From the human T2T-CHM13v2.0 reference genome, Homo sapiens, in the NCBI RefSeq assembly GCF_009914755.1, contig NC_060930.1: DNA of 64,000 nucleotides; one strand, 5' to 3'. Below the pieces are notes generated by a model. The model was not told where the DNA came from. It searched no databases and saw only the letters and a list, made by a program, of their open reading frames with translations. Of the stretch, positions 1,555-30,533 are shown in pieces. Made by a program: the position numbers and the translations under genes. Each line of letters opens with the position of its first letter. Positions within the stretch are counted from its first letter, which is position 1.

Positions 1555-3480
1555 CCATCCCTCACCCCCGCCTCCGGCCCTGCCCGCCGTCCCCCACCCC
1601 CGCCTCCGACCCTGCCCTCCATCCCTCACCCCCCGCCTCCGGCCCTGCCCGCCAGCCCTCACCTCCGCCTCCGACCCTGCCCGCCTTCCCTCACCCCCGC
1701 CTCCGGCCCTGCCCTCCGTCCCCCACCCCCGCCTCCGGCCCTGCCCTCCATCCCTCACCCCCGCCTCCGGCCCTGCCCTCCGGCCCTCACCCCAGCCTCC
1801 GGCCCTGCCCTCCGTCCCCCACCCCAGCCTCCGACCCTGCCCGCCAGTCCTCACCCCCGCCTCCGACCCTGCCCGCCTTCCCTCACCCCCGCCTCCGGCC
1901 CTGCCCTCCGGCCCTCACCCCAGCCTCCGACCCTGCCCTCCGTCCCCCACCCCCGCCTCCGGCCCTGCCCTCCGTCCCTCACCCCCGCCTCCGGCCCTGT
2001 TCTCCGTCCCCCACCCCAGCCTCCGGCCCTGCCCTCCGTCCCCCACCCCCGCCTCCGACCCTGCCCTCCGTCCCCCACCCCCGCCTCCGGCCCTGCCCTC
2101 CGTCCCCCACCCCCGCCTCCGACCCTGCCCTCCGTCCCCCACCCCCGCCTCCGGCCCTGCCCTCCGTCCCCCACCCCCGCCTCCGGCCCTGCCCGCCAGC
2201 CCTCACCCCCGCCTCCGACCCTGCCGTCCGTCCCCCACCCCAGCCTCCGACCCTGCCCGCCAGCCCTCACCCCCGCCTCCGACCCTGCCCGCCAGCCCTC
2301 ACCCCCGCCTCCGACCCTGCCCTCCGTCCCTCACCTCCGCCTCCGACCCTGACCTCCGTCCCTCACCCCCGCCTCCGGCCCTGCCCGCCAGCCCTCACCC
2401 CCGCCTCCGACCCTGCCCGCCTTCCCTCACCCCCGCCTCCGGCCCTGCCCTCCGGCCCTCACCCCAGCCTCCGACCCTGCCCTCCGTCCCCCACCCCCGC
2501 CTCCGGCCCTGCCCTCCGTCCCTCACCCCCGCCTCCGGCCCTGTTCTCCGTCCCCCACCCCAGCCTCCGGCCCTGCCCTCCGTCCCCCACCCCCGCCTCC
2601 GACCCTGCCCTCCGTCCCCCACCCCCGCCTCCGGCCCTGCCCTCCGTCCCCCACCCCCGCCTCCGACCCTGCCCTCCGTCCCCCACCCCCGCCTCCGGCC
2701 CTGCCCTCCGTCCCCCACCCCCGCCTCCGGCCCTGCCCGCCAGCCCTCACCCCCGCCTCCGACCCTGCCGTCCGTCCCCCACCCCAGCCTCCGACCCTGC
2801 CCGCCAGCCCTCACCCCCGCCTCCGACCCTGCCCTCCGTCCCTCACCTCCGCCTCCGACCCTGACCTCCGTCCCTCACCCCCGCCTCCGGCCCTGCCCGC
2901 CAGCCCTCACCCCCGCCTCCGACCCTGCCATCCGTCCCTCACCTCCGCCTCCGACCCTGACCTCCGTCCCTCACCCCCGCCTCCGGCCCTGACCTCCGTC
3001 CCTCACCTCCGCCTCCGACCCTGACCTCCGTCCCTCACCCCCGCCTCCGGCCCTGACCTCCGTCCCTCACCTCCGCCTCCGACCCTGCCCTCCGTCCCTC
3101 ACCTCCGCCTCCGGCCCTGCCCGCCGTCCCCCACCCCCGCCTCCGACCCTGCCCTCCGTCCCCCACCCCAGCCTCCGACCCTGCCCGCCAGCCCTCACCC
3201 CCGCCTCCGACCCTGCCCTCCGTCCCTCACCCCCGCCTCCGACCCTGCCCTCCGTCCCTCACCTCCGCCTCCGACCCTGCCCTCCGTCCCTCACCTCCGC
3301 CTCCGGCCCTGCCCTCCGTCCCTCACCTCCGCCTCCGGCCCTGCCCGCCGTCCCCCACCCCCGCCTCCGGCCCTGCCCGCCAGCCCTCACCCCCTTCTCC
3401 GACCCTGCCCTCCGTCCCTCACCTCCGCCTCCGACCCTGCCCGCCCGCCCTCACCCTCGCCTTTGACCCTGCCCGCCAGC
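1555..3480 (+). repeat. GC-rich VNTR, 32-bp unit (CCCTGCCCTCCGTCCCCCACCCCCGCCTCCGG and variants), ~60 copies
   Basis: 32-nt periodicity read directly; extreme C skew on +; repetitive Pro-rich and Gly/Arg-rich ORFs in the track. Confidence 0.97.
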
Positions 3481-4151: not shown

Positions 4152-4479
4152 GTAACTACTCCAGACCCCCAGCGTATAGTGGGGTGCCCAGTGCAAGCTA
4201 CAGCGGCCCAGGGCCCGGTATGGGTATCAGTGCCAACAACCAGATGCATGGACAAGGGCCAAGCCAGCCATGTGGTGCTGTGCCCCTGGGACGAATGCCA
4301 TCAGCTGGGATGCAGAACAGACCATTTCCTGGAAATATGAGCAGCATGACCCCCAGTTCTCCTGGCATGTCTCAGCAGGGAGGGCCAGGAATGGGGCCGC
4401 CAATGCCAACTGTGAACCGTAAGGCACAGGAGGCAGCCGCAGCAGTGATGCAGGCTGCTGCGAACTCAGCACAAAGCAG
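4152..4479 (+). CDS. ARID1B: ARID1B coding exon, 328 nt (~exon 8): (G)[10 protein letters not shown]...AANSAQS(R)
   Basis: tttttgtttag| acceptor, CAG|gtacgc donor, phase 1 to 2; lies within ORF 4094..4540. Confidence 0.95.
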
Positions 4480-6252
4480 GTACGCCACCCAGGAGCACGC
4501 CCCGGGCAGGTACGCTGTGTGTCTACCCGTGACCACGTGACTGCGCACATAGCTGCATTGTTCCCTGGGGTCACACAGAGCAGTAGAATGTCACTGTGCT
4601 TGGCCGTTCTTTTTGTGTTAAATATATTCTGTAGCATCGAGGTCAGAGAACTAAGTGACAAACCATGTTTTATGATACATGAGGAAGGAATGTGAGCGGT
4701 GAGCACATCAGTCGTGGGAGGTGATTTGAAATGCCTGTGAATAGTCATTGCAGCAGCAAACCAGATCTGGTTGCACAGGGAAGTGTCTGCGTGGTACCAA
4801 TTGAAGCAGTGACTTTTAAGCAGGAAATACGCTTAGGAACGATTTAAAATCTAAAACATTCAAAAGGAACACACTCCCCACCTTTTTTTCACCCTACCAC
4901 AAGAATCTTCCTAAAATACAAACTTCGTATGTATACATACGTGTATTGTGTGTTTGTCTAAATGTATATGTGTGAGATTTATATACTTGACATTCTTATG
5001 TTATATTTTATTTTTCCAGGCATATCTATCTGTCCAAACCAAAATGTGGTTTAAAAAGCAAATATAATATTTTAGAAAGTTTGAGTTGATAAAAGGCTTT
5101 AGCTACAATTACTTACTCATTTTTAATCCCGACTTAAAAATTAATTTTGAAGTAAATACTTGACCTGGATAAAAATAACATAATTAAAAATTTATAAGGC
5201 AAAGGTGAATATGTTTTAAAAGCACATGTAAATATGTTTTAAAGCAACATACTTTGAAAGATGTGTATCTTAATGATATCTTCAGAAGCAAAGTAGAAGA
5301 TTCCGATTTTTGTCAAAGGGAAGCAAAAGCTAAGGTGTGTGTGCGTGTGTGCATGTGTGTGCGTGTGTTTTTAAATGTGTCTTTTGTTACTTTTCCTCTG
5401 AAGCTGCTATCTGGGGAATGTGGGACCCCTCCAGTCTTATTGTTTTTTCCAAATAATAATAAATTTCCCTTGAGGAAATAAAATGAAAATCAATCATTAT
5501 CTTTCTTTCTGTCTCCACATTACAATTACTTAAAATCTTCTGAACTCCAGCAGTCTAGCCCTCTGCCGAACCTACACAGGCTTTAGGGAATATTTTTGTA
5601 AACCTGTCTGTGAAAACTGGTTTGGCTGTTGAAATTGAAGTTCTAATTCAAGTTTAAATGAATTGTCCATTGTTGCAACTCATAAAGCGCAAGTTATTTT
5701 CTTTTTTTAAGTAGAAAGTATTTGATTGCATTTGGCACGCAGCCTTTGGAGGGACCTCAGAAGATAGCCACAGAGAGCCAGGCCTGATTTTGTGTGGTTA
5801 CAAAGCTACGCGTGCCCCCTCTCTGAGTCAGTGTTTATGTCATCCTGTAGCAATCAATATATAAATACACATCCATGCATTGCCATTTTCCGTTTCTAAT
5901 GCGTAGACCATTCCAAAGCCTTGCCTTCAACTTACTGCCCATTTTAGCTCACCAGGAGTTTAAATGGGGGCTGTATATCTTCTTGTTTGCTTTTACCAAA
6001 GTCAAAGCTATACTTTAAAATGGTAAATGGAGATTAGAATTGAGAATATTACTTTTCTCTGCCTGTCCCCACCCTTTCGTTGGAGGCATTTTCTGTACCC
6101 CCCACCCCTCAGGCAGCGGCAGGATGCAGGGTATTCAACTTGCCTCCATGGTCTGTAAGCCCCGCACCTATGTGTGGGGGTGACAGATATACAGGGCTCA
6201 TGCTTGTGCATCAGAACAAATCCCAAGAAGCTGTTCTTCTGTTCCACTTTAG

Positions 6253-6381
6253 GCCACCATACATTAGGTCGCCTGCTTATCCCAGCCAGTCTGGGGCTGG
6301 CGGACGCCCCATGTTTTCTTCCCAGCACCCCAACTATGGCAACTCTCAGGCTCCCATGGTGCACCAGCCTGACCAGTACGG
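6253..6381 (+). CDS. ARID1B: Putative alternative cassette exon, 129 nt/43 aa: PPYIRSPAYPSQSGAGGRPMFSSQHPNYGNSQAPMVHQPDQYG
   Basis: gttcttctgttccactttag| acceptor, CGG|gtaggt donor, symmetric phase 2-2 matching both neighbours, no stop, P/Q/S/G/Y composition like flanking exons. Confidence 0.7.
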
Positions 6382-9229
6382 GTAGGTAGCAACACACCCC
6401 GACTTGCTGCGGGACCTGGGCGTTTTCTCTGAAACTGTTAACGATCGTGCCGTCTGGCCGCGAAAGGAACACCCAAACCAAGAAAGCGAAACACCTAACA
6501 GAAAATCCATCTCCAAGGGGGTTGTCCTTCTGTCCATTTTTGTTGGTGTGTTTGTTTCGTTTTCCTTTCGTATTAACAGTACTGTGGCCGTTCGGTGGAA
6601 ACCCGCATGCGTCCTCAGGCCCTGTCTGTGCATGGCTTTCGGCATGGCTGCTTTCCTTCATGCCTGAGAGGGAAATAGAAACTTTGATCTGTGTCGAAGA
6701 CATGATGTCACCACCTCTGGCGTCATTTCCCCCATTGTTGTCATTGTTTTGTCTAGGAACCTGTGTTGTGCAGCGCTGTTCTCATGACTATATTATCACT
6801 CCTGCTGCTACAGTGAGCGGCTGCCATACCCACCCCCAAATTAAGAGCACAGCATCTCATTTGACAAGAGACTCACTGCAGTTGAGCTGACAGGCTATTC
6901 ATAGGACTTAGGAGGAGTTTCATTATATCACCACCAAGCAAATGTCTGTGCCAAAAACTTCTATTATTTTTTCTCCAGCGAGTATCAGAATATTGAAGTC
7001 ACCAGGAAAATACAACAAAATAATCCAACAGATAATTTTCTGTCTAAACACAGTGTTGCCATATTATTCTCAATTTCAACACAGGAATTACATACAGCAA
7101 CAAAAAGTATCTCTTCTTTCCTACTACAAAACTGTGTAATATCAGGTTCTGTCACCATGTTTAGGTTAGTAAATGCTCTTAAAGTCTATTACTATTGAGT
7201 GAATTGCTAAAAAAAATAATTATTGCTATCATCCTGGGCAGACTTAATCATGTTTGGTAGTTAGTTTTAGTAGAGACATGCCCCATCTTTGGTTAAAATC
7301 AAACAGGGAACTATCACCTAGCTTTGTTTAAACAGTAAACTTATAGAACTATGCTTTCACTACTGGTTATGAATGCCTGACAGAGCTTTTTAGTAGTTTT
7401 ATATTCAGTTTACATTTATTTAGACAGAACAAATGATAATTTTGGAATCGAGAGTTCTAAAGTCTGTAAACATGGCCCTAAATGTGGACCAACAAATATA
7501 GAATCCTGTAAACATCATCCCCAAAGTGAAATAACAAATATAGAATGAGGTAAACATGGTTATTCTTGGGAAATTGGCTTTTCCTCTTTCTTACTTTCTT
7601 GTGGTACCTTCAAGGTCAATTCATGAGTCAGTAGGAAGATAACAGTCGGAGGAAGCAAGCATTCATCATCTGCAGCTAATCCATAGGATCTGTCCTTTTA
7701 CCAACTCCAGAGGCCTCTTTAGACCCACAAAGCTAGTTTGACTGTGCCTTGCCAAACCACATTAAGCAGCTGTGTAAAATGAATTTAAATGGCATGCATC
7801 AGAGTGAAATCTCTTCCACTGGGGCAGAAAATCGATGTTAGCTAACCAGCACGAGGAGATCAAATCTGTATTTCAGCCAGCAGCATCCAGATAGCTTCCT
7901 TAGAGTACAACACCTCCTCCTTAATTAAAAATAAGAAAAAGAAAAATGTTGGCGTTATTCTATGTAAATCTTATAAAGCACACTTGGCAAGGGCTCATAT
8001 TCATAGCCCCATGACTGTTAGCTGTGAATTTTAACTTTTATGTCTACACTATTCTTTCTAAAAAAAGAAAGAAGTTAAGTTTTATTTCTATTTTAAATCT
8101 TCCTTCTGTTCACTTCGCAATGCACATAACCTGTGTTGTGCCTTTTTTAAAAGCAGAAGCTTGAATCTGAGAAAACATGTGTATGACATGTTTTAGTGCT
8201 CTGGGTTGAGAAATCTGATTTTCAACATGCTTTTGCTTTACTTATTTAACAGCTTGTTGCAGCAAACTCGTGGTTTTGCTTTGATTTTTGTTCCCCCATT
8301 GATGGCTCTGTTAGGTTGAAGTTAGGTTGGCGATTAGAAAAGCTAGTTTGCTAAATGTTAGTTTCTCTTTGGGAGAGGAAGAAATGGCATAGTGTGGGAT
8401 TCACAGAGCTTGTCAGAATGACTTCTTTCTCAAGGCACAATCCCAAAGGACCTAGAGCCCATGGAAGAATCTGAAAAGGACAAATTAATGATGAAGGTGG
8501 AGCGTGAGTGAGTGTGTGTCTGCAATTAGATAAAAACAGAATGCTCATTGTAAAAATGAAGGATTGGGGCAATTATGCTTCAGATTTTCTCAGCTGGTCA
8601 AGTATAAGATAGTAGAGAGAAAAAACATGCAAGTTTAACTGGTTAGAAACTGTTTTATTAATTTCTTTGAGAGTGACAATATGAAGGTAAAATCGACCTG
8701 CTGCATTGAATAAATTAAGAAACATAGATTAATTTTTTTTCTTTTTCACCTTTTGAGTAAATTCCTCATTTTGATCATCAGAGGATTTACAATAGAATCT
8801 GGTGAATCTTCTTGTTCACGTACTAGATTCACTGTGCAGTAATATCCAGTCATTTGAAGTTAATGGTTTATAAGTAATATCTGTACAGAACCCTCCTCCT
8901 TCTACACACTGATACCCTTTTTATCTGAAAATGCATTGTTGTGTACAGTTTTAAAGCATTGCTAGTTAAGGAATTTACTTTTGAAGATATAAGAAACAGA
9001 GAGTTGGAAATACTAGCTGATCTTACTAAAAGCCTACTTCAGGAATGGCAAATTAGTTCCATCCATCTGTAGATCAGTTCTCGTGGCTCTCTGTAGCATC
9101 ATTTTGGAGGATTCTGAGCCATTACCTGAGCATAGGTGAGCCAAAGTTTGCCAGAAGCTTAGGAAGAACTTTGGCCTACCACTTCCTAAAGAGCATAGCT
9201 GTGGATCCCAGGCTAAACACAGGCTTTAA

Positions 9230-30374: not shown

Positions 30375-30533
30375 GATAGCTACAGCTCTCAGGGTATTTC
30401 TCAGCCCCCAACCCCAGGCAACCTGCCAGTCCCTTCCCCAATGTCCCCCAGCTCTGCTAGCATCTCCTCATTTCATGGAGATGAAAGTGATAGCATTAGC
30501 AGCCCAGGCTGGCCAAAGACTCCATCAAGCCCT
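30375..30533 (+). CDS. ARID1B: ARID1B alternatively spliced exon, 159 nt/53 aa (~exon 11): DSYSSQG...PKTPSSP
   Basis: Poly-T tract plus ccacag| acceptor, CCT|gtaagt donor, symmetric phase 0-0; recalled as present in only some isoforms. Confidence 0.9.

What the first reader, a model, noticed from the sequence alone, without database searches (positions are those of the whole stretch)
6253..6381. Hidden 43-aa cassette exon in the ARID1B disordered region
Seen: good acceptor and donor, length divisible by 3, correct phase 2-2, no stops. The Tyr-spaced P/Q/S/G low-complexity peptide looks like the neighbouring exons. It starts R|PPY, as ARID1A continues at the equivalent junction (from memory, NR|PPGY), which suggests an ancient duplicated exon. 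I do not recall it in the main reference isoforms; it may be in predicted or minor ones. Inference: a tissue-specific insert adding 4 Tyr and 1 Phe 'stickers' to the IDR that mediates cBAF condensation and partner binding. Clinical exome analysis might miss it.
Basis: partly seen in the sequence, partly recalled or inferred. Interest (0 to 1): 0.8.

Follow-up and report, generated by a model that had tools for sequence, protein, structure and literature searches.

The report
Known, ancient ARID1B alternative exon
This is a real 43-codon optional exon of the human ARID1B gene that is already annotated and has been kept almost unchanged from sharks to humans, but it is missing from the reference transcript that clinics use and nobody seems to have studied it.

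Summary
Window 6253-6381 is a 129-nt, phase 2-2, stop-free exon with ordinary splice sites.

It is not hidden. The hub's RefSeq table lists it as an exon of other ARID1B transcripts. A human protein named "isoform X28" carries it at exactly the predicted junction.

It is very old. 50 named ARID1B proteins, from placentals to sharks and rays, carry a 43-residue insert at the same junction, with no indels and aromatic positions kept in 49-50 of 50. In frogs it is better conserved (84-95% identity to human) than either flanking constitutive exon (54-77%).

The ARID1A argument fails. Canonical ARID1A has no counterpart, and its sequence after the junction matches the downstream ARID1B exon.

New lead: the only cluster of three GCATG motifs in the 64-kb window lies 224-265 nt downstream of the exon. 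This suggests RBFOX-enhanced inclusion in brain, heart and muscle, which is untested.

Seven ARID1B-directed literature searches found no paper on this exon.

Verdict: known, real and conserved; function inferred only.

The parts
6253..6381 (+). 129-nt in-frame alternative cassette exon of ARID1B. It inserts 43 residues (PPYIRSP...PDQYG) between ...NSAQSR and QGSFPG...
   Evidence: It is present in the human protein named isoform X28 and conserved in 50 named ARID1B proteins. The hub RefSeq table lists it as an exon of other transcripts.
6232..6252 (+). Polypyrimidine tract and AG acceptor of the cassette
   Evidence: 16 of 20 pyrimidines, no upstream AG, T at -3.
6379..6387 (+). Donor site CGG|GTAGGT (7 of 9 match to MAG|GTRAGT). 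A second GT 4 nt downstream would bring an in-frame TAG into the exon.
   Evidence: In the unnamed read-through ORFs P0003, P0004 and P0025 the stop after ...QYG is replaced by Q, which implies C at donor position +2 in those genomes.
6605..6646 (+). Cluster of three GCATG motifs (one of them TGCATG), 224-265 nt downstream of the cassette donor. Candidate RBFOX-binding intronic splicing enhancer.
   Evidence: it is the only group of three or more GCATG within 60 nt among 68 GCATG in the window; 1 match against 0.15 expected in dinucleotide shuffles of the whole window, both strands.
6382..6700 (+). Conserved, CpG-retaining flanking intron downstream of the cassette
   Evidence: 200-nt windows starting at 6280-6430 hold 10-13 CpG, against an intron median of 2 and a 95th percentile of 7; read-through ORFs from unnamed contigs still align to about 6655-6684.
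4152..4479 (+). Upstream constitutive ARID1B exon (ends ...NSAQS + AG)
   Evidence: Hub table.
22568..22713 (+). Downstream constitutive ARID1B exon (starts G + QGSFPGMNQ...). Homologous to ARID1A residues 914-959.
   Evidence: Hub table.

Best explanation
Window 6253-6381 is a genuine, already annotated, frame-preserving alternative cassette exon of ARID1B. It arose no later than the common ancestor of jawed vertebrates. When included, it inserts 43 residues into the N-terminal disordered region, about 180 residues before the ARID domain in human isoform X28. Shown here: the exon's anatomy, its presence in a human protein model, and its strong length- and frame-preserving conservation at the same junction in cartilaginous fishes, coelacanth, amphibians, reptiles, marsupials and placentals. 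That conservation exceeds the conservation of the flanking constitutive exons. Inferred (about 50%): inclusion is tissue-regulated by RBFOX proteins binding a cluster of three GCAUG motifs 224-265 nt downstream. That position normally promotes inclusion, so higher inclusion is predicted in neurons, heart and skeletal muscle. Inferred (about 35-40%): the insert changes what the disordered region binds. It could do so by adding aromatic stickers; in four full-length reptile orthologues it supplies 11-12% of the Tyr of the N-terminal region in 3.6-3.8% of its length. Alternatively, and I think at least as likely given the near-invariant blocks, it could provide a specific short linear binding motif.
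For: Anatomy and frame. Human protein named isoform X28 contains the peptide exactly between ...NSAQSR and QGSFPG and holds all other window exons. The hub RefSeq table lists 6253-6381 under exons of other transcripts. Conservation by search: one search gave 29 hits from 30 candidates, 23 of them named ARID1B. One search gave 50 hits from 58 candidates, all ARID1B, including squamates, turtles, coelacanth, a caecilian, sharks and rays. One search gave 16 of 16. One search covered 50 named cassettes: all are 43 residues, all end in QYG followed by Q, and 15 of 43 positions are invariant. The aromatic positions are kept in 49/50 (Y3), 50/50 as Y or F (position 9), and 50/50 for F21, Y28 and Y42; identity to human in six frogs is 84-95% for the cassette, against 62-77% for the upstream exon and 54-60% for the downstream exon. 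Variable columns are 16 of 43, against 60 of 108 and 33 of 48; in read-through ORFs from unnamed genomic contigs, identity is highest in the exon and falls off in the flanks. RBFOX lead. Tyr number tunes condensation of mSWI/SNF prion-like domains, including ARID1A and ARID1B: passages of PMC10850361. Aromatic share.
Against: I could see no RNA evidence (junction reads, PSI), so the inclusion level and tissue pattern are unknown. X-numbered isoforms are automated models that may be partly homology-driven, so their existence in many species is not independent proof of expression. No named teleost, bird, mouse or lamprey protein appeared. Clustering at 90% identity may hide birds and mouse inside large clusters, but teleosts should have formed their own. 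Two unnamed genomic ORFs carry decayed copies: P0031 is 67% identical with conserved blocks altered, and P0032 switches reading frame inside the exon. The exon is therefore dispensable in some lineage, or those contigs contain errors. A mouse cortex splicing resource lists only a ~160-nt Arid1b cassette (coordinates 105500-105659) and not this exon (12 of 15 supplementary files searched). The GCATG cluster was found after scanning about nine motif families on two sides, so its nominal rarity must be discounted. Conservation of the exact motif letters could not be read from protein-level alignments. The crude splice-plus-ORF filter also passes two decoys in the same intron.
Confidence: 0.85

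Rival explanations
1. The exon was constitutive, or the major form, in early jawed vertebrates and still is in some lineages. It became a minor, largely dispensable alternative exon in mammals, so the human copy is a fading relic with little present function.
For: In some species the cassette form is the only model or the X1 model (Eublepharis single model; Candoia, Rhinatrema and Mobula X1). The human selected transcript skips it (hub table). Decayed copies exist in unnamed contigs (P0031, P0032). Some unnamed contigs carry C at donor position +2.
Against: Placental and marsupial cassettes remain 91-98% identical to human, with no indels. That is not expected for a relic drifting over more than 100 million years. 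X1 numbering does not reflect abundance (my own knowledge of NCBI naming).
Confidence: 0.15
2. The conserved block is primarily a non-coding regulatory element, such as an enhancer or intronic splicing element. It happens to be open in frame and was picked up by automated gene models.
For: A RefSeq enhancer feature (5834-6334) overlaps the 5' part of the exon (hub table). The flanking intron is also conserved and CpG-rich. Two decoys show that open frames with splice-like ends occur by chance.
Against: Conservation peaks in the exon and drops in the flanks. Length is fixed at 43 codons in 50 of 50 named proteins from shark to human, with mostly conservative amino-acid substitutions. The peptide is more conserved than the flanking coding exons. 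The composition matches the surrounding disordered region.
Confidence: 0.04
3. One reading: the exon is an ancient duplicated exon shared with ARID1A, so ARID1A has, or once had, the equivalent cassette.
For: The cassette predates the split of cartilaginous and bony vertebrates, so it could be as old as the ARID1A/ARID1B duplication. HMMER extends the upstream alignment two residues into the cassette, to ARID1A 913.
Against: The 2285-aa ARID1A chain has one residue between the aligned blocks, where the ARID1B isoform has 44. ARID1A 914-959 aligns to the downstream ARID1B exon. None of the hits (29; 50) or 42 (16) is named ARID1A. In one search (7 hits) the library carries no names.
Confidence: 0.08

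Closest known systems
ARID1B 159-bp in-frame alternative exon (exon 11 of MANE NM_001374828.1; window 30375-30533)
   Same: It is an in-frame optional exon in the same disordered stretch before the ARID domain. It was absent from the long-used clinical transcript NM_020732.3 and was flagged as a region pipelines might miss (passages of PMC8393241).
   Different: That exon is included in the selected transcript and is discussed in clinical literature. The 129-nt exon is skipped in the selected transcript and was not mentioned in any paper my searches returned. The 159-nt exon is Ser/Pro-rich with 5.7% aromatics, against 11.9% here.
ARID1B 39-bp exon 3 of NM_020732.3
   Same: It is a small in-frame alternatively spliced ARID1B exon whose clinical weight depends on isoform usage (passages of PMC8393241 and PMC6752273).
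   Different: Truncating variants in exon 3 are reported there as most likely benign. For the 129-nt exon no variant data were seen, and its shark-to-human conservation argues for function. Exon 3 lies outside this window and I did not examine its conservation.
RBFOX-activated cassette exons with downstream (U)GCAUG clusters
   Same: Three GCATG lie within 42 nt, 224-265 nt downstream of an alternative exon, inside a conserved flanking intron. That downstream binding promotes inclusion is established knowledge of RBFOX position dependence, recalled and not taken from a call.
   Different: No CLIP, knockdown or tissue PSI evidence was available. The one mouse cortex resource I could search does not list this exon.
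[quoted passage not shown]
   Same: The cassette is a P/Q/S/G-rich segment with regularly spaced Tyr/Phe. In those domains the number of Tyr tunes phase separation (passages of PMC10850361).
   Different: I did not see the boundaries of the ARID1B construct used in that paper, so whether it contains these 43 residues is unknown. The cassette is far more conserved than typical sticker-spacer sequence, which suggests a specific motif.

Membership tests
Conserved frame-preserving alternative cassette exon | AG acceptor with polypyrimidine tract, and GT donor | tested here: met
   16 of 20 pyrimidines and a 7 of 9 donor match, equal to the neighbouring constitutive exons.
Conserved frame-preserving alternative cassette exon | Length divisible by 3 and open in the host reading frame | tested here: met
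   129 nt, with 0 stops in the joined inclusion and skipping frames.
Conserved frame-preserving alternative cassette exon | Both inclusion and skipping forms annotated | tested here: met
   The selected transcript skips the exon and other transcripts include it (hub table). The human protein named isoform X28 includes it.
Conserved frame-preserving alternative cassette exon | Peptide conserved at the same junction in orthologues | tested here: met
   50 of 50 named proteins have 43 residues with no indels, from shark to human.
Conserved frame-preserving alternative cassette exon | Junction reads and measurable PSI in tissues | not testable with these tools
   No RNA-seq resource is held.
RBFOX-activated exon | (U)GCAUG within about 300 nt downstream of the exon | tested here: met
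   three motifs at +224, +249 and +261. This is the only such cluster in 64 kb, against 0.15 expected.
RBFOX-activated exon | Motif conserved in other species | tested here: inconclusive
   read-through ORFs P0003 and P0004 keep the surrounding block (CLCMAFGMA 9 of 9). Third codon positions cannot be read from protein.
RBFOX-activated exon | RBFOX CLIP binding and a change in inclusion on RBFOX loss | not testable with these tools
   The Rbfox target paper (PMC3992522) is not held. The searches found nothing on this exon.
Exon shared with paralogue ARID1A | Counterpart sequence in ARID1A at the equivalent junction | tested here: not met
   the aligned blocks end at ARID1A 913 and resume at 915. 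ARID1A 914-959 matches the downstream exon.
Sticker-spacer (prion-like) disordered segment | Spaced aromatic residues in a polar, Gly/Pro-rich context | tested here: met
   4 Tyr and 1 Phe in 42 residues; 8 Pro, 5 Gln, 6 Ser, 4 Gly.
Sticker-spacer (prion-like) disordered segment | Measurable effect on condensation or partner binding | not testable with these tools
   This needs an isoform-specific experiment.

The most novel reading that the evidence does not exclude
The exon and its conserved downstream GCAUG cluster form a splicing switch at least as old as jawed vertebrates (roughly 450 million years by my own recollection of that divergence). It would give neurons, heart and muscle an ARID1B with an extra, nearly invariant 43-residue binding module in the disordered region that steers cBAF. 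Truncating or splice variants in this exon are read as deep intronic on the selected transcript. They would then cause a tissue-restricted ARID1B deficiency that current clinical annotation overlooks.
Probability: 0.2. Interest if true: 0.6.

Novelty: already known. Interest (0 to 1): 0.3.

Why it matters
[quoted passage not shown] Interpretation of its variants depends on which exons count. That paper's authors already warn that exons absent from the habitual transcript may be missed by pipelines.

This 129-nt exon is annotated but sits outside the selected transcript. It appeared in none of the papers my searches returned. It is nevertheless more conserved than its constitutive neighbours.

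If it is substantially included in developing brain, loss-of-function and splice variants in it deserve clinical attention. If it is not, it joins exon 3 of NM_020732.3 as a region where truncations are probably tolerated.

It also offers a natural plus/minus test of how a short, conserved piece of the ARID1B disordered region affects cBAF behaviour.

Tried and rejected
1. Literature. Seven ARID1B-directed searches found no paper on this exon. One further ARID1B search concerned the disordered region. Passages read in PMC9924231, PMC12077678, PMC8710557, PMC13542418, PMC8437376 and PMC11100849 were irrelevant to it. The library does not hold most subscription papers, and supplements are not full-text searched.

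2. The Rbfox HITS-CLIP target paper (PMC3992522) is not held.

3. The supplements of PMC5989265 list only a ~160-nt Arid1b cassette, with no regulator called. Files 13-15 were not searched.

4. Residue-level view of ARID1A at the junction. The printed alignments were cut before the junction. Shorter queries gave 0 hits, probably because of composition filters. Only the downstream exon gave a readable alignment. I did not see the letters of ARID1A residues 905-913.

5. Searches for cassette-like peptides beyond ARID1B, or in teleosts, lamprey or ARID1A. Searches found none. Sensitivity is limited: sees only representatives of 50% clusters, and needs shared exact words.

6. Synonymous versus non-synonymous analysis was not possible, because no vertebrate DNA is held.

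7. Rfam scan of 5000-7800: only a sub-threshold chance match. Pfam on the cassette and on the antisense open frame: nothing.

9. Other splicing motifs (QKI, PTB, MBNL, NOVA, CELF, hnRNP A1, G-runs) showed nothing striking in the 300-nt flanks.

Full report
**Observation**

Window 6253-6381 is 129 nt. It is preceded by ttcttctgttccactttag and followed by gtaggt. Only one of its three frames is open. That frame continues the frame of the upstream exon 4152-4479, which ends with two bases of a codon, and hands two bases to the downstream exon 22568-22713. The joined reading frame has no stop with the exon (237 codons) or without it (194 codons).

By a crude count, its acceptor (16 of 20 pyrimidines) and donor (7 of 9 consensus matches) equal those of the neighbouring constitutive exons.

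The same crude filter was applied to the 18-kb intron. It asked for an acceptor-like site, a donor-like site, a length of 3n, and an open frame in phase. It found 54 acceptor-like and 39 donor-like sites, and three candidate exons passed. Two of these are compositionally unrelated decoys. Splice sites plus an open frame alone would therefore not have been convincing.

**Already annotated**

The hub's RefSeq table lists 6253-6381 under exons of other ARID1B transcripts.

A word-indexed search with the 42-residue peptide returned 29 hits from 30 candidates:
- 23 named ARID1B, including a human protein named isoform X28;
- one named hypothetical primate fragment;
- five ORFs from unnamed contigs.

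The human protein carries the peptide exactly between ...NSAQSR and QGSFPG.... It also contains every other coding exon of the window. X-numbered names are NCBI's automated models (my own knowledge), so the exon is annotated at least at that level. The exon is therefore not hidden, although it is skipped in the selected transcript.

**Conservation**

A second search centred on the junction gave 50 hits from 58 candidates, all ARID1B. It added squamates, another turtle (a cluster of 725 member sequences), coelacanth, a caecilian and seven cartilaginous fishes. A third search, using a shark cassette alone, gave 16 of 16 and added one more shark.

Fifty named cassettes were compared. P0006 was left out because its model has an extra 11 residues before an otherwise intact cassette.
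- The insert is always 43 residues.
- It always ends in QYG followed by Q.
- It has no indels.
- 15 of 43 positions are invariant.
- The aromatic positions are kept in 49/50 (Y3), 50/50 as Y or F (position 9), and 50/50 for F21, Y28 and Y42.

In six frogs, identity to human is 84-95% for the cassette, against 62-77% for the upstream exon and 54-60% for the downstream exon. This comes from 17 of the 23 aligned sequences; same-species duplicates, P0006 and the reference itself were not tabulated. Variable columns are 16 of 43, against 60 of 108 and 33 of 48.

Read-through ORFs from unnamed genomic contigs show identity highest in the exon and falling off in the flanks.

It dates the exon to the jawed-vertebrate ancestor at the latest.

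**Results that cut the other way**

- No named teleost, bird, mouse or lamprey protein appeared. Clustering at 90% identity could hide birds or mouse, but hardly teleosts.
- The library-wide scan of cluster representatives found seven hits. P0031 is a degenerate copy (67% identity, conserved blocks altered). P0032 changes reading frame inside the exon. P0033 is an unrelated chance match.
- Three unnamed ORFs read Q where human has the stop just past the donor. This implies C at donor position +2 in those genomes.
- I saw no RNA evidence of any kind.
- A mouse cortex splicing resource lists only a ~160-nt Arid1b cassette (12 of 15 files searched).

**The ARID1A argument**

With the cassette-bearing human and opossum proteins as queries, the 2285-aa ARID1A chain of PDB entry 6LTH aligns up to its residue 913. 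It resumes at residue 915, skipping query residues 328-371 and 200-243 respectively.

The downstream ARID1B exon alone aligns to ARID1A 914-959 with E 1.2e-5.

What follows the junction in ARID1A is therefore the homologue of the downstream constitutive exon. Canonical ARID1A has no counterpart of the cassette. The two-residue resemblance at the start is no evidence of a duplicated exon.

I could not view ARID1A residues 905-913, and I could not examine the ARID1A intron.

**How it probably works**

The insert is the most aromatic stretch of its neighbourhood: 11.9%, against 3.7% and 6.2% for the flanking exons. In four full-length reptile orthologues it supplies 11-12% of the Tyr of the region N-terminal to the ARID domain, in 3.6-3.8% of its length.

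Passages of PMC10850361 report three relevant points:
- prion-like domains of ARID1A, ARID1B and SS18 phase-separate;
- the number of Tyr residues tunes this;
- mutating all 29 Tyr of the ARID1A domain to Ser abolishes it.

A modest gain in sticker valence is therefore plausible. However, conservation this tight inside otherwise drifting disordered sequence points at least as much to a specific short binding motif. Neither possibility is shown.

**Regulation**

Scanning the 300-nt flanks for common splicing motifs showed three GCATG at +224, +249 and +261 downstream of the donor. This is the only group of three within 60 nt among the 68 GCATG in the window.

A gapped-pattern search found 1 match, against 0.15 expected. 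12 of 100 dinucleotide shuffles of the whole window had at least one match on either strand. The chance of such a cluster falling within 300 nt downstream of this particular exon is far smaller. The motif was, however, chosen after looking at about nine motif families.

The block lies in a conserved, CpG-retaining stretch of intron.

Downstream (U)GCAUG is the classical arrangement for RBFOX-enhanced inclusion (my own knowledge). This predicts higher inclusion in neurons, heart and skeletal muscle. It is a lead, not a result.

**Literature and novelty**

Passages of PMC8393241 and PMC6752273 discuss the 39-bp exon 3 of NM_020732.3 and the 159-bp exon 11 of the selected transcript. The latter is window 30375-30533. 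They do not mention the 129-nt exon. Seven ARID1B-directed searches returned no paper describing it.

**Verdict**

This is a real, known and very old alternative exon. The functional reading remains untested. I rate interest as modest.

Noticed in passing
window 1558-3474: A C-rich 32-bp minisatellite of about 60 copies (89% matches) lies in the intron upstream of exon 4152-4479. It leaves all three plus-strand frames open for more than 1 kb. It is not among the masked stretches listed by the hub.
   Followed up: partly
window 4476-4515: The donor 9-mer CAG|GTACGC of exon 4152-4479 is repeated exactly 30 nt downstream (after 4509). Using the second copy would add 30 nt in frame without a stop. 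The Galemys model P0006 carries an 11-residue insertion at this same junction.
   Followed up: no
window 6008-6781, minus strand: A 257-codon stop-free frame runs antisense to the cassette and its flanks. It is the longest open frame outside real exons and the minisatellite. It has no Pfam match. It is probably a by-product of the GC-rich conserved block.
   Followed up: partly
window 6355-6357 (cassette residue 35): Human has Val where nearly all other named species have Met. Aotus has Ala, Varanus has Ile, and Erinaceus also has Val.
   Followed up: no
P0031 and P0032 (unnamed contigs), aligned to window 6195-6382: These are decayed versions of the exon. One has conserved blocks altered. The other has a reading-frame switch inside the exon. 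The cause is either lineage-specific loss or assembly error.
   Followed up: partly
window 6383 (donor position +2): Unnamed read-through ORFs P0003, P0004 and P0025 read Q where human has TAG. This implies C instead of T, meaning a GC donor or loss of the site in those genomes.
   Followed up: no
window 5834-6334: A RefSeq enhancer feature from the hub table overlaps the first 82 nt of the cassette and its upstream flank. I did not test whether this reflects real enhancer activity or the conserved exon.
   Followed up: no
window 4160-4171 (upstream exon, residues RPPAY): The constitutive upstream exon begins [10 protein letters not shown], which contains a PPxY-type motif. The cassette's own PPY start does not fit PPxY. 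The motif definition is recalled, not taken from a call.
   Followed up: no
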